DNA of 64,000 bases from Parasitella parasitica NRRL 2501 (lineage: Eukaryota; Fungi; Mucoromycota): positions 1-64,000 of the forward strand of contig MU619373.1 in NCBI GenBank assembly GCA_025201805.1. Reading direction: 5' to 3'. Made by a program: the position numbers and the translations under genes. Every line of letters begins with the position of its first letter. The first letter of the stretch is position 1. Positions 1 to 44,692 of the stretch are shown one piece after another. The notes below the pieces were generated by a model. The model saw nothing but the letters and a program-made list of their open reading frames with translations. It did no database searches and was not told the DNA's origin.

Positions 1-580
1 ATCGTTAGATCAACAACGTCAATAAACAACTCAATAATATTCACACTCACGTAAGATTAGAATAGCTACGATAGAATTATCCTATTGACCTGATGAATGA
101 CCATCTCTAATCAACCCAACAAGTAGTATGATAGTTTACTACTAAGCCAGAACGGCTGATTAGAATTCATAACACAACATATAAAGAATAATGGAACGGT
201 TAAGAAATAACGAAACAATTGTCTGCTAGTAAGACGACACTCAAATAATATAAACAGAGATATAAAATAACAGCTTATTGCACATTCAATCTACTTTCAA
301 AATAAAGAAGGATTTTAATCGTATCTTGCTTTTTTACACTTTTTACTGCATTTCGCTGCAGAGAGGTCGCCATGACTCCAAATCAACTCGTATATTCTTT
401 AAATCACCTAAGCTATCACAACCAGTGCTTATATTGCAATCTAGTTACTTTGATAAATTACGTTAAAAACCTTGATCATCTTGCTATGCACATTTGAACA
501 GCTTAATGTGCCCATATTTTTCTATTATGCCCATTTGTGCATATTATTATACCCATGGGAATACTACTTCGGCCGTAGTG
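1..580. mobile_element. Terminus of a CACTA/EnSpm-type DNA transposon (element probably extends left of the window)
   Basis: The minus strand from 580 reads CACTACGGCCGAAGTAG. Three subterminal 12-mer repeats follow (TAATGTGCCCAT 504-515, TATTATGCCCAT 523-534, TATTATACCCAT 545-556). The LINE ORF2 runs into this terminus and stops 10 codons later. Confidence 0.65.
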
Positions 581-1569
581 GAACTATCCAAAGATTGGTA
601 CAAACATTGATTCAAAGAATCGTTGAGTGCATCAATATCTGGACGAGAACCAGGAGGAGCAGACACCAAACCAGAGAGTTCAACAGCCAAAGGAGCAACA
701 GAAGACCTAAAGAGGGCTCGATATACACCCAAAGGCTTTTTCTTACCCAACTTAGATAGCTTCCACTGCCGTCTAGGAGCAACACCAGAATCACCAGAAG
801 CCATAGAATCCCCAGGAGGAGCCACATACTCGAAGGTAAGTACCAACAATCGATGATCAGAGCTAAGGGACAGATCAGATTCGACCACCAACTGAGGGTT
901 TACCATACCAGCCTCACCAATGTTTGTCAAGAAGAAGTCAATGATACTACTACACTCCCGCTGCTGACGGAAGCTAGAGTATGTTGACACACCAAAAGCC
1001 AAAGACGTATTTAAATTCCTGAAGCAATACTCATCCAGCCAAGGCTTTAGAGCAGTACCACGAGGAGTTGCCACAGTATCACCAGTAAAAGAACCCATCC
1101 GAGCATTGAAGTCACCGCAAAGAATAGTATCCCTAGTTAAAGGTAATGAACTGAGAGCCGAGAGCACCCTATCAGTTGATAGGGGTGGAGGAAAGTATAC
1201 ACAGTGTACTGTCAGGGCGCCAACCCTTAAGGACAAAGTATGCGGATTATAAGATGGAAGTTGATAGACTGAAAAAGGACAGGAAGGAGAGACAAAAGCA
1301 GTAATACCACCAGAACCACGGTTGAAAGCACCAGGTACTTTGGAGCCATAGAGATGATATTGAGACCAGTCTGTAGGAAAGGATCCAGAGGTAAGCCAGG
1401 TTTCAGTAACTATTAGAACATGAGTGCTGAGAGTGTGAGACAGAACATCATGAACTACTGATTGGCGAAGACCATTAGCATTCCAGAGAGAGAGAGAGAC
1501 AAATAAGGAGTGGACAGGGTTGTTGTTATTATTATACAGTATCGGTGAATCAGTAATGGAAGAACACAT
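547..1569 (-). pseudogene. LINE ORF2, AP-endonuclease (EEP) domain; truncated before the reverse transcriptase
   Basis: Motifs LWNANGL, IVTETW, GSGGI, ILCGDFNAR, SIIDFFL and LSSDHR are canonical for retrotransposon APE. The last ~10 codons come from the CACTA terminus. Confidence 0.88.
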
Positions 1570-2701
1570 TATTGTTCATCCATATCGGACACACTAGGAT
1601 CCTCACTTGGATCATTGAGCTTACGACGAAACAAGAAGTCGGCCTTCTTGGGTTCCTTCTTGGCAAAACGTTGAAGAGCATCCGCAACAGAAACAGAGAG
1701 ATCCTCTTGACAGATCCAGCCTTGATCAACAAAGTAGCGACCAACACCACTGACATTGAGAGGGCGAAGGAAGGTCAAAGTTTGTTGGCAACGAGCAGCA
1801 GTAAACTCAGAAATGAGAGCAGAACGTTCATCAATAGAGAGATCAGCATACTTGGGATCGGCAATGTTAGCAGGATCCAAAGGGTCAAAGTCCTGGATGA
1901 TTTGAGCATCACACTTGGTAGATAACAGATCAATAAATTCCGCAGCGTATTGAACATGAAGAAGAATACCAATTACTTCAGAAGCAGGAAAGCAGATATC
2001 CAGTACACGACCAAGATCCACACCAACACCTCTAAATGTTGAGCGAATTTCAGAACGTTGAAGCTTTCGAGAGCGCCCAATATAGACATATTGGTAGCCT
2101 TGCGGACCTTTAGCAGCAGCAGTTTTGAATATACGACCAGCAGCTAGACGTTTCTTAACTTGTCTAGTAGGATCGGGAAGGTTGGCAGCAGCAGTAGCAA
2201 TCTGACTAAAGGTAGCAGGAGTGGCAGAAGTAGCACCATTAGTAGCAGCAGTAGTTTTGGTGAGACGTTTTGAAGAACCAACTTCCCCCCTTTCGCTTTG
2301 AGCTCCTTTGATGTCACGTGATCTAAGGCTTGTAATTTCCAGATCCTTCTGTTGTAAAAGGTTTTTCAGTTCAGTATTCTCTTTTTCCAACATATCTAGA
2401 CGCGACAGTATCCCATCATGTTGATTAACTCGTTCAGTAACTGAAGTAAGTTGTTGTTGGAGTTGTTGCAGTAGCAAATGTAGTTGATTCATGTCCATAA
2501 TTTGTAGATTATCAGTCATGGTTGATAAAATATATTTTTTATAAATTTAAAATTTAAAAAAAAATATGAAGCAGTTGTTCGACAAGGCTAAAACTATAAC
2601 ACAAGATACTACTCTAATATAAGGCAAGTATATTGGTATAATTTCGAGTTGATTGCGTTGCTGACTGTCGAGAAAATACGTTTTTTGTTGAAGTGAAAGT
2701 G
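581..2701 (-). mobile_element. Non-LTR (LINE-type) retrotransposon, 5' part, interrupted at 580
   Basis: ORF1 plus an APE-endonuclease ORF2 in tandem. The 5' boundary (~2701) is inferred, not proven. Confidence 0.85.
1569..2519 (-). CDS. LINE ORF1 (coiled-coil plus putative RNA-binding domain)
   Basis: Intronless 316-aa ORF with an N-terminal coiled coil and a YQYVYIG...RVLDICFP...GILLH block. It lies directly upstream of the APE ORF, and its TAA overlaps the ORF2 ATG. Confidence 0.8.
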   Translation of the reverse strand: MTDNLQIMDMNQLHLLLQQLQQQLTSVTERVNQHDGILSRLDMLEKENTELKNLLQQKDLEITSLRSRDIKGAQSERGEVGSSKRLTKTTAATNGATSATPATFSQIATAAANLPDPTRQVKKRLAAGRIFKTAAAKGPQGYQYVYIGRSRKLQRSEIRSTFRGVGVDLGRVLDICFPASEVIGILLHVQYAAEFIDLLSTKCDAQIIQDFDPLDPANIADPKYADLSIDERSALISEFTAARCQQTLTFLRPLNVSGVGRYFVDQGWICQEDLSVSVADALQRFAKKEPKKADFLFRRKLNDPSEDPSVSDMDEQ

Positions 2702-2749
2702 TTTCTACCAGGATAGGGTGGCAAAAAGTGATGGAAAAACGAAAGAGAT

Positions 2750-2822
2750 GCGGGTATAGCTCAGCTGGGAGAGCGTTAGACTGAAGATCTAAAGGCCAAG
2801 CGTTCGATCCGCTTTACCCGCA
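2750..2822 (+). tRNA. tRNA-Phe (GAA), intronless
   Basis: Acceptor stem GCGGGTA/TACCCGC, D-arm GCTC...GAGC, anticodon arm TTAGA-CTGAAGA-TCTAA, T-arm AAGCG-TTCGATC-CGCTT; 73 nt. Confidence 0.97.
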
Positions 2823-2827
2823 ATAGC

Positions 2828-2832
2828 TTTTT
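2828..2832 (+). terminator. RNA polymerase III oligo-T terminator of tRNA-Phe
   Basis: TTTTT 5 nt downstream of the discriminator base. Confidence 0.75.
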
Positions 2833-3169
2833 AACAAGCTTCAAATCAGTGGTGTCTTTAGTGCAGTTGCAATTGTAGTTTGATAAATTTTATATCACGT
2901 ATAGATGCTTTGGTATTGTTGTAATTGATTTCATCTTTTGCTTTAACGTGGCAAATAATAAATAAGTTTTTATAGAAAATTTAGCAACGGCAGATCGATC
3001 TATAATAGTAGTGAGCACCAGCAGTTTTACAGCTGTTATCCAACTTAATTTTTGTTGTGGCAGACAGGTGGTGATTTATCAGAATGAGAAATTATTCAAA
3101 TAAAACGGTTGTGAATTAATCAAGTAAAGATCTCGTTTATTACATGGAAAAAATGATGGTTTATATACT

Positions 3170-4578: not shown

Positions 4579-4842
4579 ATAAGGCTTTTCTGAATAAAAC
4601 CAGATACAAAACTGAAGAATTTTATTGACATAAGATATAATCTCTAGTTATACTAAAAAAATATATCCCAATCAATGTTTATCCACATAACATCTGATGT
4701 TTGACAAGAAGTGTCAAACCTTATTAAATCACAGCATTTCCAGGACAGACCCATCTTTCTATTTTACATTAAAGAAAAGATTGGGTAGAATGTCTTCCCG
4801 ACATCCCGCGATCTGATCTAGATGTATTCTTTGAATAAGCCA
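4579..4842 (+). repeat. Dispersed repeat module A, copy 1
   Basis: Aligns by eye with the reverse complement of 37618-37886 (shared blocks CTGAATAAAACCAGATACAAAAC, TTTGACAAGAAGTGTCAAA, CCCGACATCCCGCGATCTGAT). Confidence 0.85.
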
Positions 4843-5284
4843 GGAACCTTGCAAGAGGTCCAATTACAACTTGTATAGCTTATTCCTTATTTGTAAAAGA
4901 ATTACCAACAATTAATATCGTGATCCGTGCATTATGACTAGGTTAGATATGATATACTTCTAGCCTTTATATGGATACAACAAAATATTCTGGGGTAATT
5001 TGAAGTTCATATTCATACTATTTACGGAAATTCTTTTTATGTAATGATCAGTTTATACTGATCTATAACAATAAGGCATTCCGTCAGTTTTTTCCCTCGT
5101 CGTATGGCCAAAGAGAAATACCTATAGATAGCTAAAAAAATTCGCATTCAATAAAAATATATTATGCGTTTTTCAGCGAACTTCAAGGGTAATTCTGACG
5201 AAATTGAAATTGAGATTTCACGAAATAAAAATTTAATCGGCGGAATTGTCCTCAAAATACAGTAACAATTATACCAATTCCACA

Positions 5285-5548
5285 GATATCAGTGATGTAT
5301 CAATTCTAAAACCGGATGTCAATATAATATAAACTCGTACTGAAGAGTAAAACATCAGATCATAAAATAATATGACATGACATTTGGGATAGATACAATC
5401 TACCCTATCTCCCGGATCTCATCACTAAAACCTTTATCCTCACATCGCTTCCCTCAGTTCATAAAAAGTATATCAACCCTCTATTTTTGAATGTAATAAA
5501 CGGATATTTACATAATTAACTTCTATTTGAATTTTTCTGATAAATCAA
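5285..5548 (+). repeat. Dispersed repeat module B, copy 1
   Basis: Aligns with the reverse complement of 38355-38581 (shared blocks CTAAAACCGGATGTCAATA, TGGGATAGATACAAT, AACCCTCTATTTT, TTTTCTGATAAATCAA). Confidence 0.8.
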
Positions 5549-12815: not shown

Positions 12816-13372
12816 TCAGTTATCCTCGAAATCAATGCGGTCTAGCTCCTCTTGTTCTTCATGTGTTAATTCTAGTGATTTCCCTCCTAACATTTGTCTC
12901 AACTTTGAGGTGTGTTTTGGCACAACGATCTTGAGCTTATCTGAAAATTCTTTAAACTGAGAGAAAGAAAAAAAAATGAGCGATCCAGTTTTCTCTTATT
13001 TTGGTGAATACTAACGTTTCTGACATCTAACCACCATCCAACAGCAGTTGCTAATAAACCTGCGCCTCCAAATGCTAATAGTGTACCATAACCCAATGTT
13101 TTGAATGCAAACAACGAAGCATCTTTCTTGGCAATAGCATACTGGGCAGGTGTCATCTTAGGCGGTATATAAGGTTGGGGCGTGCGATGAGGAGTTGGTG
13201 CAGTTGGAACTACACCTTGAGCAATTTCTTGTTGCATTCGCTGATTTTGTTTTCTTCTTGTATACCAAATAGCACCTAGGAGACCTGCTCCAAATGCACC
13301 TCCTGCTGCTGTCAACAATTCCGCTGTAGGTGGTGGAGTATTTGTGTCTTGTTTCTCGGGTTGCTTACTCAT
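12816..13372 (-). CDS. TMEM242/Aim11-like mitochondrial membrane protein
   Basis: Two Gly/Ala-rich TM segments and AFKTLGYGTLLAFGG...DVRN|FKEFSDKLK; intron 12957-13015. Confidence 0.7.
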
Positions 13373-15358: not shown

Positions 15359-17305
<1,947 letters not shown>

Positions 17306-35296: not shown

Positions 35297-37617
35297 AAAA
35301 ATCATACAAGTACATCCATATTATATGAAGAGACGGATTTCCACCGTGACCAAAGTAAGAAATAAGCATGTAGGAATCTAAAATATCATTTTTACCACTG
35401 ACTAGCTGATTAGCCATGATTGTACATACAACGTTTTTTTTCTTAAATTACAAGCAGGTCAAGTGTTCCTTCTTAATATATCAACACTCACAAGGGAGCC
35501 AATCTGACTCTCCTCTCTTCTCGTCTGCTCTTTTCATCTCTCCTCACTTGGTCTGGAACCAATTTCAAGGATGTATACGTATTCCTCATCACTTTTCCAA
35601 GCAATCGCTATTCATAAGACTAATGCTATTTAACAAGTATTAATAAATATATTATGGCCTAATATTCAAATCGCATATCGTGACAAAGGATGGTACGTCG
35701 CGATTGCTTTACGATTTATGGACATAAATAGTAGGTACCATTCCATCAGTTTATTTAAAAATCACATTTACAAAATGCTAGTCGGAATCGAATCAACTGT
35801 TCGGCTTGGCAATAATTGGAACGAACAATTACGTCTGTTCGATATTATGATCCAGTTGAACAGCTGATATGTATTACATGTATCGACTACTAAAGATCCG
35901 AACCGCATAACATTTTACTATTACTATTAAATACTATTGATTCTCCTTGAATTCAACATCTGTATGATCACATGAGAAAGAGGGGTGATGTGCAATCATA
36001 TGTCGATCCTTGATACAAATCAACCAGGCAATTGGTTTTATTAAAGTCTGTACCTAGAATACCATCATACCAATGGTGTAGCACCCAGGAATGTCATTTT
36101 TTTGTCATTTTGCAAATGAAATATGGATTTGAGAATGTGTATGATAAAATTTATAGGAAGAGCTGAATAACTAGATATATATATATCAATCCATAATCAA
36201 CGTATTGCAAAGATGCAAACGATAATTATTTTGCCAATTTTCTTGACAATTACGTAAAACATTATTTCATATGAGCCTTGAGGAATATATACCTCATACT
36301 GACTTTGTTTTTTTTAGTTATCAATGTTGAAATTCATATGTTTGCACAAATCGCAACAAACACATATTATACAGCATATTATTTTAGCAATGAGATCTGT
36401 ATTTTCAAAATCATTTAGTATGAAAGCCTGCATATTACCAGAGCAACTTTTTTTATGACATTCGATATATACATGGCTCCATTCATACAATGTACAAATG
36501 TATGGCAGTATATATCTGATTCCAATGTTAAATTTCAAACGAAAAACAAATAGTCAAACTTCTACCTGGTGTATATGGTTTGCAAATTATTACTAAATTC
36601 GCAGCAATGTTATACTTGAAAGCCTCTGTTGGAGAATGATTCTCTCTTCTTGGAAATAGATCGTCTATACATGTCAAAGAATAAACATTTATGATAATGC
36701 AGTAAAGCTAGAACAAGCCACTTAGAGTAAGTAGATGCAATAATTATTCATTCAAAAGCTTCAAATGTTGAAATTTAGTAACAATTAATTGACAATGTGC
36801 TTAATATGATTAGGAAGAAAAAAACTTTTAAGGCTTTGATCATGACTAGAATAAAAAAACAATCTAGCAAAGGTTTGAAAATGTATGATGTTTTATCAAT
36901 TTTTCAGGCAATCATTATTTCAGAGAACCAATAATATAATATGCACCATAATTTATAATTCACATGAAAATGTCCTTTATAACGCGAGCATAATCCACAT
37001 TTTCTTGTGGTGACGAAGACTATAAATTTAGGGATATTCCTGCTACATCAAAAAGACTATTATCCCATAGGTCTCTTATTATTGCTGTAAAGCCTCTCTG
37101 ACGGGATATAATTACAAGCACTTTTAAAATAGAAATGTTCTGCCCAAAACCAGTATAACATAAAAATACAATTTATTATTACAGATACATCCATAGAAAG
37201 TATTTATGCTAATGTAAGTAGCTTTTATATGAGCCCTAACAAAGGGTCTTGAAATCTAAGGCTGTCTGCAAAATGTGTAGAAATGCTTTTGATCTAATCT
37301 TCTCCCAAAGATTGCAGGCAACCTTGCATTCATATAACTGTTTATTATGGTAATATCTGATCCTAGGTCTATACCACTTAGTAGCGCCAAGCACTTGCTT
37401 CCGCAGACCTACATCGCTTCGAGAAGTTTCGGTTCACTGATCGCTTCTAATATTCAAGCAGTTCTATATTAAAAACTGCGCTAAATTTGATTGTCGTACC
37501 CATATAAAAGCTATATATGTCATATCTAACATAGTTATAGTGTACTGATAATGAATGATAATGATATTCATTGTTGGTATTGCTTTTTCAAATAAGAAAT
37601 AGGCTACAGATTGCAAA

Positions 37618-37886
37618 TGGCTTATCCAAAGATTACATCAAAATCAGATCGCGGGATGTCGGGGAGACATCTTGCCCACATCTTCTCTCTAATGTAAAAT
37701 AAAAGAAGAGGTCTCTGTTCCTGGAAATGCTGTGATTCAATAATGTTTGACACTTCTTGTCAAATAGTAGATGTTGATGTGGATAAACATTGACTAGGAT
37801 ATTTATAGTATAAATAGAGATCTTATCTTATGTCAATAAAAGTCTTCTGTTTTGTATCTGGTTTTATTCAGAAAAAGTCTTTATTC
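37618..37886 (-). repeat. Dispersed repeat module A, copy 2 (inverted)
   Basis: Reverse-complement match to 4579-4842. Confidence 0.85.
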
Positions 37887-38354: not shown

Positions 38355-38581
38355 TTGATTTATCAGAAAACTTAGATAGAAATTAATCAGGCAAAAATCC
38401 GCTAATTATATTTAAAATAGAGGGTTAATACACTTTTTGCGAACTGGGGAAAGCGATATGAGGTAAATTTTTGGTGTGAGATCCAGGAGATAGAGTATAT
38501 TGTATCTATCCCACATGTACTTTATGATCTGTATTGACATCCGGTTTTAGAGTTGATATGTTTGATCTATATTGTGATATC
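38355..38581 (-). repeat. Dispersed repeat module B, copy 2 (inverted)
   Basis: Reverse-complement match to 5285-5548 with an internal deletion. Confidence 0.8.
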
Positions 38582-40525: not shown

Positions 40526-43003
40526 ATGGCTGGTACTTTACGTTGGCACTCCTGTTCAACAAACGATTTTCCACTTAAAAGGCATAAAGTATCAAAAGCA
40601 TGTGAGGCATGTCGAGGCAAAAAAATGAGATGTGACGGCAGTAGGTATTGTGAATGAGCTATGGTGGGTATGATGCTGACCGTTTTTACTAGATAATCCT
40701 TGCCAACGATGTGAGAATAATAAGATTAAATGTAAATACAATGATAAACCGAGTCGATCGCGTAGCCAAAAGCCATCACCAACAGCAACATCTGCGACAA
40801 AAGAGGAAATCGCCGGCACCACAATAGAAGACTTAGAATCAGGGACACTATCGATCTCAAACAGAAAACTCCATAAAATAACGTTCAAGAACCACTTATA
40901 TGAAACACTTAAATTTAAATCGCTCAAAATACGCCGCTATGGGCTCTCGTTACCCCCATTGCTGGTGGGATTCTTCGATACAACATCGCAGTCGACTAGC
41001 GTATGGACTCGGTTAGTGGATTTACTAAACCACATCGACAACATTGAAAACATCGAAAACACCGAACACTTGGAGTCGATCAAAAACAATTTGGTAAAGG
41101 AAGCCTTCAGACTGTTCGTCACACACAACCTGGTGTATGGCTCTTTCATTCACTCACAGTTGTTATCGTTTGTGCTCAATTCCAATGCCTTGCACCAGTT
41201 CATGCGCCCTACTGAACCGCAGAAACAACATACACAACCCTACTCACCTAGACCATCATTATCAGCATTAAATCATCGTTATTTGCCTTATTTTTCAATC
41301 ATCATATATAGCATACTTGCAATTACATTTCTTTCTGCTTATCTTGTTTTACCCAACAATAATAGTTCCATTCCAACCGAAAATTTGTATTTATATTCTC
41401 ATGTCTTTTACCGTGAGGCTCATAAACAATTTCTTGAAACATGCTTTCCAACAGCATCAACAACAGCAACCATATCAGTCTCGGAACCTATGCAAATGAT
41501 GCTTCTGGTGCAAGCCTCGGTTCTTTTGGCTCATTTCCAATGTCAAGCAATCAGCGAAGAACAGGCCTACATGACGATCCGAATAGGGCTAGATTTTGCG
41601 CAAAGATGTTCTCTTTCAGCTGATGTCGTATTGCAAGATGATAACAGCGACTCTATGAGAGATGCGCTATCGATATCGCTGGATTCTTGGTATGCTTGGT
41701 TGTCGTTCTATCTTGGAAAGCCTTATTCTGAAAGGGAATCCAGTGGCAGTGAGGATCAAGATCCAAAGGAGTTTACCCTATCCCCAAAAAAGACAGATGA
41801 ACAGAAATGGGCTTTGCAGATAACTGACACATACACACGCTTCTTGAAGGTTATTTTGTTGAAAAATAAACACCAAAAAACAAGCATCAAGTCGATCAAG
41901 GTGAATACACTGAAAATGCAACCTGAAAAAAAAAATCAATCATCTAACGAACTATATTTGCACCTAAACAGGATTCTCTGAAATCACTACAAAATGCATT
42001 GTTACCGGAGCAGCGCATTCTTGAAACAAACCAGCCCTATAAAGCCATCTGTTTATACAATGATGTTTTAGCCATTCAACTCTCTAGCTGTTATTTTGAT
42101 TTTATAGATTCTACGCTGGCTGATCCCACATTGCTAGATTCCTCCACATTATCAGTATCGAGCCAATCGACCGAGAATACAACTTCACCAACGGCAACGA
42201 CACCGCCAGACGAGTATCGCCTATTTTCTTCAAAGCACGATATGCCTGTTCTTGATATTTGTATTCAATCATCCAAGAATATTCTGACTGTAGTGTATGA
42301 AATGGTGCAAAAAGACATTGACGGTAGCCATCCGGTCCCCAGCACAGCTATTTACGCTACTTGCCTAGTATCTCAATTGCTTTTCTTTTTCCAACGCTGT
42401 AAAAAGCCGCTCACCATGGAAAAGAAACAACAAGACGCAATCAATTCTATGAATTTGCTCTATACACATTTATTCAAACTACTAAAGTATGCCTCGAGCC
42501 ATGTAGAGACATTGGCCATGCTATTGGTGCAGCTAAACGACAATATTGGAGACACTAAAATACCCTCGTTATCGTCCTCGCCACATACTGACAAACATCT
42601 TAGAAAAAGCCAGGTCCCTCCATCCCCATCTCCCTCCTCCTCCTCAGATGTAGCAGTTGCGGCCCACGTGGCAGCAACAGCATCATCTACAGCAGCTATG
42701 ACAAACAGTATTGCAGCACACGAAATTCTGTCACAATCAAATGCTAGCGAGCTCTTGATGGTTGCAGACCCCGGCTTTAGCGTCAATTCCAACACTGCCA
42801 AATCCACACTGGACCATTTGTCATCAGTTCCAACGCCTAGCGTGATATCAAGACTGGATATTGATAGAGAACAACTAGAGAAGCTGTCTCGTAAACCACC
42901 TACTTCTTCACGCCAGCAACAAATCAATCACAATCAAATGCAGCAGCAAATGCAACAGCGTCAACAGTATCAGCAATATCAGCAATATCAACAATATCAG
43001 CAA

Positions 43004-43098
<95 letters not shown>

Positions 43099-43108
43099 NN
43101 NNNNNNNN

Positions 43109-43203
<95 letters not shown>

Positions 43204-44692
43204 ATATCAGCAACAACAGCAACAGCAACAGCAGTTTCTATTGCAACAACAACAACGGCAGCAACAACGGCAGCAACAGCAGCAGCAACAGCAGCAGCAA
43301 CAGCAGCAGCAACAGCAGCATAATGTCCACCAATTTGATTTGCATCATCCTCAATCTGGCTCCAATTATCTATTCTCCAAATATGTCTCTGCAACAGGTG
43401 TTCCCGTCATTACCACCAACAGCTCTCAGAAAAGGGAGAGTTATTCTGGAGGCTTTTCTCAACCTGGCGATACAATTCCCGTTGGCTCTTCAGCGGCGGC
43501 AGTGGCAGCAGCGGCTGCTATGAACAATCAATATTACTATTACGGTTCGTCTTCTACAAACCCCATCCATCACGGTAAAAGGCAGATGCAACAATACAAC
43601 AGCGCTTACCATGACTATTCCATGCAACAGCACCCATCTAAAAGGTTACGCTCAGACACGATGACATCGTACGAAGACGCTGGTGGCGGTGGTGTTGGTG
43701 GCGATACGTCTACCATCCATTCATTTGAGGATTCAGGGATTCTTCGATCTCGCAATAATAGCCTAGAAACGCCGACCACGACAGCAGCGACTAGCTTTAT
43801 CGATGTGGATGAACTAACAACTGCTACCGATTCACACCCATCCGCAGTACAGGTCGCAGACGCAGATTTGATGTATTGGATGCTGGATGATCCAGGGAAC
43901 CAATTTTATCATGACCAGCCTCAGCAGCACCAACAGCATGCATTTTCAAGGCAGAATAGAGCGCATGCAAGTAACAGCGGCGGCAACAGTAGTAGTGCGC
44001 CTTCCAACAGCATGCTTCTACTCCAGCAGCAGCAGCAGCAGCAGGCCATGGAGCAGGAATCAAGCAGTCATATGAACGCCAACCTAACAAAACTGCCTCT
44101 TCCCCATCCATCTAAACCAACTTCTATGCCTTTAAAAAACTGGTCTCCAGCTCCTGCTCAATATTCCAACAAGTTTTTCTTTGCATCCGAGGTTCAAACA
44201 TTGCATTACCAAACACCATCATTAATCAATTTTGAAAATTCGTCGTTCCCAATTGGATTGAATGTCATACACGAGGAGGAAGGCGCCGAGCAGCACCCCT
44301 CAACATCATCGTCCTCTTCATCACCGTCGCAGCTGCTATGTCCACCTACCCATTTACATCATCGGGCAAGCATTACTTCGGATAAAAGTGGCAGCAGCAC
44401 GAGTGGGAGTAGTTTTGGTGGCGCCGGTGGTAACAGCAAACGCACAGATACGATAACAACGGTGGAGGCTGCTGAAGCTGCTGCTGCTGCTGCTGCTGCG
44501 ATTTGGGCATCCACTGCTGCTGCTGTTAACTATACAGGCGATTCTGCAACGCGAATATCTTCTCCATCTCACTCAAGACGCTCGTCTGCTTCTTCTCAAT
44601 ATCGTCATCGTAATAACTACCAACAATCAAATAGTAAATCTACTCTTGTTCATTACATAAATAATGAAAAGGTAGGCAATGACGAATACTAA
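40526..44692 (+). CDS. Zn(II)2Cys6 transcription factor with a long polyQ tract
   Basis: KACEACRGKKMRCDGN-NPCQRCENNKIKC across intron 40641-40692, a helical middle region, and a second intron ~41901-41971. Spans an N gap. Confidence 0.88.
43001..43318 (+). repeat. (CAACAG)n hexamer/polyQ tract containing an assembly gap (43099-43108)
   Basis: Near-perfect CAACAG units on both sides of 10 N; true length unknown. Confidence 0.95.

What the first reader, a model, noticed from the sequence alone, without database searches (positions are those of the whole stretch)
581..2822. LINE retrotransposon head-to-head with a tRNA gene: candidate tRNA-gene-targeted non-LTR element
Seen in sequence: the ORF1 start (2519, minus strand) is only 230 bp from tRNA-Phe +1 (2750, plus strand), with the element's 5' end facing the tRNA. 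A pyrimidine-rich initiator-like CACTTTCACTTC begins at 2701 on the minus strand, leaving 48 bp to the tRNA. Established: Dictyostelium TRE5-A inserts ~50 bp upstream of tRNA genes in this orientation through ORF1-TFIIIB contact, and yeast Ty1/Ty3 also target Pol III genes. Inference: a fungal LINE family may use the same safe-haven strategy. A single locus cannot prove targeting, and the 5' boundary is a guess.
Basis: partly seen in the sequence, partly recalled or inferred. Interest (0 to 1): 0.75.

Follow-up and report, generated by a model that had tools for sequence, protein, structure and literature searches.

The report
Mould LINE stacking beside tRNA genes
A broken copy of a multi-copy jumping gene (a LINE) in a Mucor-type mould starts within about 50 bases of a tRNA gene and points away from it, and its relatives pile up in same-direction stacks at scattered sites, so the family likely homes in on tRNA genes, a habit that the papers I could search describe for LINEs only in social amoebae.

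Summary
Observation confirmed. A two-ORF LINE (ORF1 316 aa; ORF2 endonuclease domain, cut at 581 by another repeat) lies head-to-head with an intact tRNA-Phe. They are the only LINE of this family and the only tRNA in 64 kb. Likeness to another copy reaches 2698, so the gap is at most 51 bp; the exact 48 bp is unproven. The family is multicopy and its named relatives are Mucoromycota; it is not the centromeric Grem-LINE1. No DNA flank of any other copy could be fetched, so targeting was tested indirectly from Mucor velutinosus record numbers. There, 65 of 83 ORF1-bearing models lie in runs (6.9 expected by chance), and 16 of 42 clusters mix ORF1 subfamilies 50-64% alike, as TRE5-A tandems do. 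Of 27 short intervals inside clusters, the only one that skips locus tags (two, possibly tRNAs) spans the one junction where two stacks point apart. Dropped gene models could mimic this. tRNA-gene targeting is likely (about 0.68); ORF1-TFIIIB contact is untested. This scan noted similar LINEs before in other fungi (anther smuts, yeasts; unchecked). Ten paper searches found no such LINE described in fungi.

The parts
2750..2822 (+). tRNA-Phe(GAA) gene, intact, no intron; candidate target gene
   Evidence: Rfam RF00005 69 bits, full model 1-71; ARAGORN; B box at 2802
2828..2832 (+). T5 run, likely RNA polymerase III terminator
   Evidence: sequence; function from general knowledge
2699..2749 (.). 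Spacer of at most 51 bp between the LINE head and tRNA +1; the true 5' end lies at 2698 or further right
   Evidence: X1 record 8 aligns 2543-2698 and then runs on unlike; an X4 contig joins 2715-2740 to ORF1 position 2437
2520..2698 (-). LINE 5' untranslated region, with blocks conserved between subfamilies
   Evidence: aligns with L001 and L002 up to 2655
1569..2519 (-). ORF1, 316 aa: predicted coiled coil (10-72), linker, RRM-like fold (about 140-211), helical tail; no zinc knuckle
   Evidence: 84 homologues among 2504 candidates; AlphaFold2 mean pLDDT 80; VIA-align Z 6.5-8.3 to RRM and other ferredoxin-like folds
1567..1571 (-). TAATG overlap of the ORF1 stop and ORF2 start, likely stop-restart translation
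   Evidence: present in the window and in L001, L002 and L003; absent in L004 (4 of 5)
581..1569 (-). ORF2, N-terminal 329 aa only (APE endonuclease); RT and C-terminus are missing from the window
   Evidence: Pfam; 75-81% identical to full 1118-1120 aa APE-RT proteins
361..580 (-). Multicopy repeat that interrupts ORF2; begins CACTAC and has short subterminal repeats, CACTA-transposon-like (label recalled, not tested)
   Evidence: junction at 581/580; loose ends before 361 and 583 and raised depth
1..344 (.). End of a further dispersed repeat of unknown class
   Evidence: single-copy contigs of X1, X2 and X4 carry 87-88% alike copies over 6-344 and 184-335

Best explanation
This is an interrupted copy of a multicopy APE-type LINE of Mucoraceae moulds that lies head-to-head with a tRNA-Phe gene at most 51 bases away, and its family likely inserts by position just upstream of tRNA genes. 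Shown: the two-ORF anatomy, the layout at this locus, the multicopy state, and same-direction runs of different subfamilies at many sites in a related genome. Inferred: the ORF1/ORF2 particle would be drawn to the RNA polymerase III machinery (TFIIIB) in front of a tRNA gene, nick about 35-50 bp upstream and insert pointing away from the gene. Each new copy would land between the tRNA and the older copy and push it outward, building head-to-tail stacks of mixed subfamilies. The protein contact is borrowed by analogy from TRE5-A and is untested. This copy was later broken by a likely DNA transposon at 581/580.
For: (1) The only LINE of this family and the only tRNA in 64 kb are head-to-head, gap 51 bp or less; TRE5-A lies 37-90 bp upstream in the same orientation (PMC5006619 table; PMC5911963). 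(2) Multicopy: own subfamily depth 217-248 against 28-31 for single-copy contigs in X2 and X4, and about 1200 against 151-154 in X1; a sister subfamily at 610-750. (3) Mucor velutinosus: 65 of 83 ORF1 or fused models have another within 7 accession numbers (null mean 6.9, maximum 22 in 5000 draws); 21 of 42 clusters hold two or more heads and 16 mix ORF1 subfamilies that are 50-64% identical. This points to repeated arrival at the same sites, not local duplication. TREs form such tandems at tRNA genes (PMC5391098). (4) At least five sites lie on one 3.5-Mb contig, which does not fit centromeres or telomeres. (5) Locus tags without a protein run at 1 per 54 (53 in 2869 tags), about 244 per genome, close to the 239 tRNA genes of Rhizopus oryzae. 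Of 27 short intervals inside clusters, only ATC70_002387-002392 skips tags, exactly two, and it spans the junction between a leftward and a rightward stack (chance of one or more 0.09, of two or more 0.004). (6) Two ORF2 proteins 73% and 76% alike share contig lengths of 11,920 and 11,418 bp in other data sets, suggesting mixed tandems there too (same contig inferred from length only).
Against: No second tRNA-element junction was seen as DNA: 0 of the 4 metagenome loci with ORF1 holds a tRNA, but they keep only about 125-250 bases before the ORF1 start and so cannot test it. The skipped tags are not shown to be tRNAs. They could be two dropped gene models, because the flanking ORF2 model KAK4514784 lacks its front half; two accessions inside that cluster (4514786, 4514788) were never listed, so their roles are inferred. 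Long intervals are uninformative: 6 of 6 holding a stack head skip at least one tag, but chance is 0.48. Cluster lists were cut at 15 members and 4 accessions, some clusters are duplicated at contig overlaps, and some merge across contig ends, so the clustering counts are rough. The locus was chosen for this layout. A 2023 study calls the non-Grem LINEs of Mucor lusitanicus cosmopolitan (PMC9963178; whether it covers this family was not checked, and tRNA proximity is not mentioned in the passages seen).
Confidence: 0.68

Rival explanations
1. The family is site-preferring but aims at something else, such as its own ends (self-stacking) or a short sequence or open-chromatin feature, and this copy sits by a tRNA gene by chance or because tRNA flanks are accessible.
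For: Stacks alone do not name the target; only one tRNA junction was seen; skipped tags may be dropped models.
Against: Self-stacking does not predict two stacks pointing apart with two non-protein tags between them. It also leaves the present layout at about 1-2% for any of 30 copies per genome (genome size and tRNA count assumed).
Confidence: 0.17
2. Insertion is close to random; copies survive in gene-free pockets that collect mobile DNA, and the tRNA flank is such a pocket.
For: Two other repeats are piled at 1-580; Ty3-like elements of Rhizopus oryzae also co-localise with tRNA genes (PMC2699053).
Against: Survival in pockets does not explain one orientation within runs or ORF2-ORF1 periodicity without nesting (listing), nor a gap of 51 bp or less.
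Confidence: 0.08
3. The tRNA gene, or the 50 bases before it, is part of the repeated unit (an element head or a segmental duplication).
For: Summed depth stays high up to 2740, and one X4 contig joins 2715-2740 to ORF1.
Against: 26 of 27 short intervals inside stacks skip no tag. A single-copy X1 contig leaves the window sequence at 2698. The tRNA has intact stems and a T run. Summed depth is inflated by overlapping contigs and is no copy number.
Confidence: 0.05
4. It is a centromere-associated element like Grem-LINE1, whose copies also point away from a central site.
For: [quoted passage not shown]
Against: ORF1 has no zinc finger and ORF2 no zf-RVT hit; several sites lie on one contig; a host hydrolase gene lies 8 kb away in the window.
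Confidence: 0.02

Closest known systems
TRE5-A/B/C of Dictyostelium discoideum and NLTR-B of Polysphondylium pallidum (PMC5006619, PMC5911963, PMC5391098, PMC3159450; passages read)
   Same: Two-ORF APE-RT non-LTR element; 5' end about 50 bp or less upstream of a tRNA gene, opposite orientation; tandem stacks of related elements.
   Different: Fungal host; TAATG stop-start overlap instead of the -1 frameshift; no modular UTR repeats seen; shared descent not tested; targeting here is inferred, not shown.
Grem-LINE1 of Mucor lusitanicus/circinelloides (bioRxiv 10.1101/706580; PMC9963178; passages read)
   Same: Mucorales LINE with two ORFs that overlap by a codon, APE and RT; clustered, oriented copies.
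   Different: Grem ORF1 has several zinc fingers, ORF2 has zf-RVT, and copies are pericentromeric; this family has neither domain and occupies several sites per contig. It may be among the 'other LINE' class (n=79) of PMC9963178, which I could not check.
Ty3/gypsy LTR elements of Rhizopus oryzae (PMC2699053; passages read)
   Same: A Mucorales retrotransposon class reported to co-localise often with tRNA genes.
   Different: LTR elements with integrase; a different enzyme and insertion mechanism.
Human LINE-1
   Same: Best solved-structure match of the ORF2 profile (131 bits over APE and RT, against 96 bits for R2 RT only); ORF1 has a predicted coiled coil, RRM-like and helical layout (L1 ORF1p layout recalled).
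   Different: L1 has no tRNA-gene targeting (recalled); clade placement not resolved here.

Membership tests
APE-type LINE (non-LTR retrotransposon) | ORF1 followed by ORF2 with APE endonuclease and reverse transcriptase | tested here: met
   APE in the window; relatives 75-81% identical carry APE plus RVT_1
APE-type LINE (non-LTR retrotransposon) | 3' tail and target-site duplication | not testable with these tools
   the 3' part is absent from the window (break at 581); no fetched locus reaches a 3' end
TRE5 (works-like test) | 5' end about 40-55 bp upstream of a tRNA gene, opposite orientation, at this locus | tested here: met
   gap 51 bp or less, head-to-head; lower bound unknown
TRE5 (works-like test) | Most copies or stack heads at that distance from various tRNA genes | tested here: inconclusive
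   no flanks obtained; indirect tag test positive at 1 junction, uninformative in long intervals
TRE5 (works-like test) | Tandems of elements at a reused target | tested here: met
   accession-order runs in Mucor velutinosus, 16 of 42 clusters mixed; read from record numbers, not from DNA
TRE5 (works-like test) | ORF1 binds TFIIIB; targeting needs the B box | not tested
   no host TBP, Brf1 or Bdp1 sequence was in hand; needs an experiment
TRE5-A (membership) | Modular A/B/C UTRs and -1 frameshift between ORF1 and ORF2 | tested here: not met
   no repeat modules among the 20 largest direct-repeat families shown; TAATG stop-start overlap
TRE5-A (membership) | RT groups with dictyostelid TRE5 | not tested
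   no TRE5 sequence was fetched
Grem-LINE1 | ORF1 with zinc fingers (PF00098, PF16588) | tested here: not met
   no Pfam hit at E 0.1; no CCHC pattern in alignment A1
Grem-LINE1 | ORF2 with zf-RVT (PF13966) | tested here: not met
   no such hit in the 1354-aa relative P0108, the only one of 5 scanned that reaches the C-terminus
Grem-LINE1 | Copies confined to pericentromeres | tested here: not met
   at least 5 separate sites on one 3.5-Mb contig of Mucor velutinosus
L1 clade | RT phylogeny within L1 | tested here: inconclusive
   only a profile search against solved structures; no clade tree

The most novel reading that the evidence does not exclude
Mucoralean fungi carry an old LINE lineage, with at least four co-existing subfamilies in one genome, that invented tRNA-gene targeting independently of social amoebae. 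All subfamilies dock at the RNA polymerase III start complex through a zinc-free ORF1 and build stacks of up to six or more elements in front of tRNA genes, in a fungus where retrotransposition can be studied genetically.
Probability: 0.55. Interest if true: 0.72.

Novelty: new variant of a known kind. Interest (0 to 1): 0.55.

Why it matters
In the reviews read (PMC5911963 table; PMC5006619), position-specific insertion upstream of tRNA genes by non-LTR elements is listed only for social amoebae; the fungal examples are LTR elements. A Mucorales case would be a further, likely independent, origin of the same safe-landing strategy with a target-primed mechanism. It would make the open question of how a LINE particle reads the RNA polymerase III machinery testable in Mucor lusitanicus, which has RNAi mutants that release LINEs. 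It would also explain long repeat stacks that appear to break Mucor assemblies.

Tried and rejected
No whole genome is held and the metagenome loci have no searchable parent record. ORF1-profile scans: metagenome contigs gave 4 loci from 63 pattern matches, none with a tRNA; viral contigs 0 of 27; prokaryote genome contigs 0 of 9. ORF2-profile scans: viral contigs 0 of 7; genome contigs 80 loci kept, only L005 close (54%) and internal to ORF2; plasmids none. A 5' UTR pattern in viral contigs: 0. A stop-free frame over the 5' UTR was used to look for spurious proteins that would carry other copies' flanks: none. No RNA holder was listed. Nine listed runs of the same species labels hold next to none of the words and X15 shows only distant pieces; this is no proof of absence. 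Foldseek found no match at E 0.001 for ORF1. Relaxed ARAGORN gave 45 calls that look like noise. Supplements of PMC9963178 that could be read hold no LINE or tRNA table; dataset S3 is a picture PDF and the SI appendix was too large, and these may bear on whether the family is described there. Corrections made on the way: one search counted KAK4514790 as ORF1, but it is an ORF2 piece, redone; one search treated the 006917 stack as pointing the other way. One search also used tag-accession pairs that I matched by equal offset in rows with several accessions, which biases toward no skips (49 short intervals, 1 with skips); one search drops those rows and is the count cited. No complex prediction was run.

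Full report
What is in the window. The minus strand carries ORF1 (2519-1569, 316 aa) and, overlapping its stop codon as TAATG, ORF2. ORF2 matches the APE endonuclease families. It is 75-81% identical to full proteins of about 1120 aa that also carry a reverse transcriptase. The overlap is shared by 3 of the 4 related loci fetched. ORF1 has no Pfam match. It has 84 homologues among 2504 candidates, and all named ones are from Mucor, Parasitella, Pilaira, Umbelopsis, Benjaminiella or Choanephora. Its nearest tree neighbour is a Parasitella parasitica protein, 88% identical over 197 columns. The model (mean pLDDT 80) shows a long N-terminal helix, a linker, an RRM-like fold and a helical tail; the fold scores (Z 6.5-8.3) are in the range of common arrangements.

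The tRNA and the gap. An intact tRNA-Phe(GAA) lies at 2750-2822 on the plus strand. It is the only tRNA, and the LINE is the only member of its family, in the 64 kb. The 5' UTR aligns with two other subfamilies up to 2655. A diverged single-copy contig of run X1 aligns up to 2698 and then continues for 78 unlike letters. The gap is therefore 51 bp or less. One contig of run X4 joins 2715-2740 directly to ORF1 position 2437. This may be an independent 5'-truncated insertion 35 bp from the tRNA, like the shortened TRE5-A junctions of PMC3159450, or a deletion, or a sign that the element's head is longer. I cannot tell which.

The left end. ORF2 is interrupted, not ended: likeness to L001 and L002 stops at 581, where a repeat beginning CACTAC starts, and other copies in X1, X2 and X4 continue ORF2 there. 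A further repeat occupies 1-344. The tail and target-site duplication cannot be examined.

Copy number. In X2 and X4 the window's own subfamily has depth 217-248 against 28-31 for single-copy contigs, and a sister subfamily 610-750; X1 agrees in ratio. This suggests roughly 7-8 and 20-25 copies, though the tool warns that depth is a poor measure of copy number.

Testing the family. No genome is held and no flank of another copy could be fetched. I therefore used record numbers of the annotated Mucor velutinosus assembly, from three cluster look-ups that list at most 15 members and 4 accessions each. Of 83 ORF1 or fused models, 65 have another within 7 accession numbers, against a null mean of 6.9 and a maximum of 22 in 5000 draws. 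Of 42 clusters, 21 hold two or more heads, and 16 mix ORF1 subfamilies that are only 50-64% identical. Where ORF1-ORF2 pairs can be read, they repeat in one direction within a run; one cluster (013087-013092) could not be oriented. At least five sites lie on one 3.5-Mb contig. Some clusters are duplicates at contig overlaps, so the counts are rough, but the excess is far beyond that. Mixed stacks mean that different subfamilies arrived at the same sites in turn. This is how TREs behave at tRNA genes (PMC5391098).

The locus-tag test. Locus tags advance faster than protein accessions by 1 per 54 tags (53 in 2869, 11 long intervals), about 244 per genome. Rhizopus oryzae has 239 tRNA genes, so the skipped tags are likely mostly tRNA genes; that tRNAs share the numbering in such annotations is recalled, not checked for this assembly. 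The idea was noted, before the deciding rows arrived. With single-accession rows only, 26 of 27 short intervals inside clusters skip nothing, so a tRNA is unlikely to be part of each element (1.3 skips were expected at the background rate, so this alone is weak against background). The exception, ATC70_002387 to 002392, skips two. It spans a point where a stack pointing to lower numbers (KAK4514782-786) meets one pointing to higher numbers (KAK4514787-790). Two tRNA genes lying tail-to-tail, each with its own stack, would give this. The chance at the background rate is 0.004 for two skips, or 0.09 for one if tRNAs come in pairs. Against it: the skips are located only to within five tags, two accessions in the cluster were never listed, and the neighbouring ORF2 model lacks its front half, so two dropped models are a real alternative. 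The long intervals add nothing: 6 of 6 holding a head skip at least one tag (chance 0.48), and the only one with no skip lies between two tails.

How it most likely works. Shown: anatomy, layout at one locus, multicopy state, reuse of sites by several subfamilies. Inferred: the reused sites are the upstream flanks of tRNA genes, chosen by position. By analogy only: the particle is tethered to TFIIIB through ORF1, as reported for TRE5-A (as cited in PMC5911963 and PMC3159450; the original paper was not read), and inserts by target-primed reverse transcription pointing away from the gene. I put tRNA-gene targeting at 0.68, another target or self-stacking at 0.17, random insertion with survival at 0.08, tRNA as part of the unit at 0.05 and a centromeric role at 0.02.

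Comparison with what is known. It works like TRE5 but is not filed as a member: the junction between the ORFs differs, no UTR modules were seen and descent was not tested. It is not Grem-LINE1, whose ORF1 has zinc fingers and whose copies are pericentromeric. Ty3-like LTR elements of Rhizopus oryzae were reported near tRNA genes, so the niche is known in this order for another class of element. Ten full-text searches returned no paper describing a tRNA-targeted LINE in fungi. The library lacks most subscription papers and Repbase, so this is not proof.

Papers seen. Passages: PMC5006619 (with part of the abstract and Table 1), PMC5911963, PMC3159450, PMC5391098, PMC2699053, PMC7175516, PMC7011435, PMC12863538, bioRxiv 10.1101/706580, and bioRxiv 10.1101/2022.12.01.518749 with its journal form PMC9963178 (also the supplement list, part 1 of file 3, and a term search of the readable files). 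Passages and section 11: bioRxiv 10.64898/2026.10.23.761428. All others only as search listings. None was read whole.

Earlier notes of this scan describe the same layout in anther-smut fungi, budding yeasts and other fungi, and none by sequence or in look-alike stretches for this family. They are unchecked and were not counted as support.

Verdict. A real feature and a probable new fungal case of a known strategy. The strongest support is indirect, and one annotation look-up or one genome-wide distance plot would settle it.

Noticed in passing
window 1948-2650: The window's subfamily looks like a recombinant: it is about 97% like the high-copy sister subfamily over 2253-2650 (9 differences, 3 gaps) but about 87% over 1948-2282 (43 differences in 335), so the 5' UTR and ORF1 coiled coil appear shared while the rest diverged.
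   Followed up: no
window 2437 and 2715: Run X4 has a contig (depth 159.5) that joins ORF1 position 2437 to 2715-2740; not seen in X1, X2 or X15. Truncated new insertion or deletion.
   Followed up: partly
window 361-580: Multicopy repeat starting CACTAC with a small terminal hairpin and short repeated TGGGCA words; CACTA-like by recall; no second end in the window.
   Followed up: partly
window 1-344: End of another dispersed repeat, found 87-88% alike in single-copy contigs of three runs; no long ORF.
   Followed up: no
window 4586-4983 with 37491-37875; 5380-5548 with 38355-38518; 3116-3169 with 5467-5519: Short non-coding repeats in inverted orientation, 78-83% alike, possibly MITE-like.
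   Followed up: no
proteins P0011, P0028, P0049, P0085-P0125 and others: Many Mucor velutinosus LINE ORF1 and ORF2 records carry unrelated host-gene names in NCBI and UniRef (Actin-2, FACT subunit, Tim9 and so on), which looks like a naming error in that annotation.
   Followed up: no
window 1572-2519 (ORF1): The ESM Atlas lists an unnamed 146-member cluster, mostly Chytridiomycota, at feature score 0.92, a lead that the ORF1 type reaches chytrids.
   Followed up: no
window 16025-16279 and 42940-43320: Long CAG-type and hexanucleotide microsatellites inside open frames; the second contains assembly Ns.
   Followed up: no
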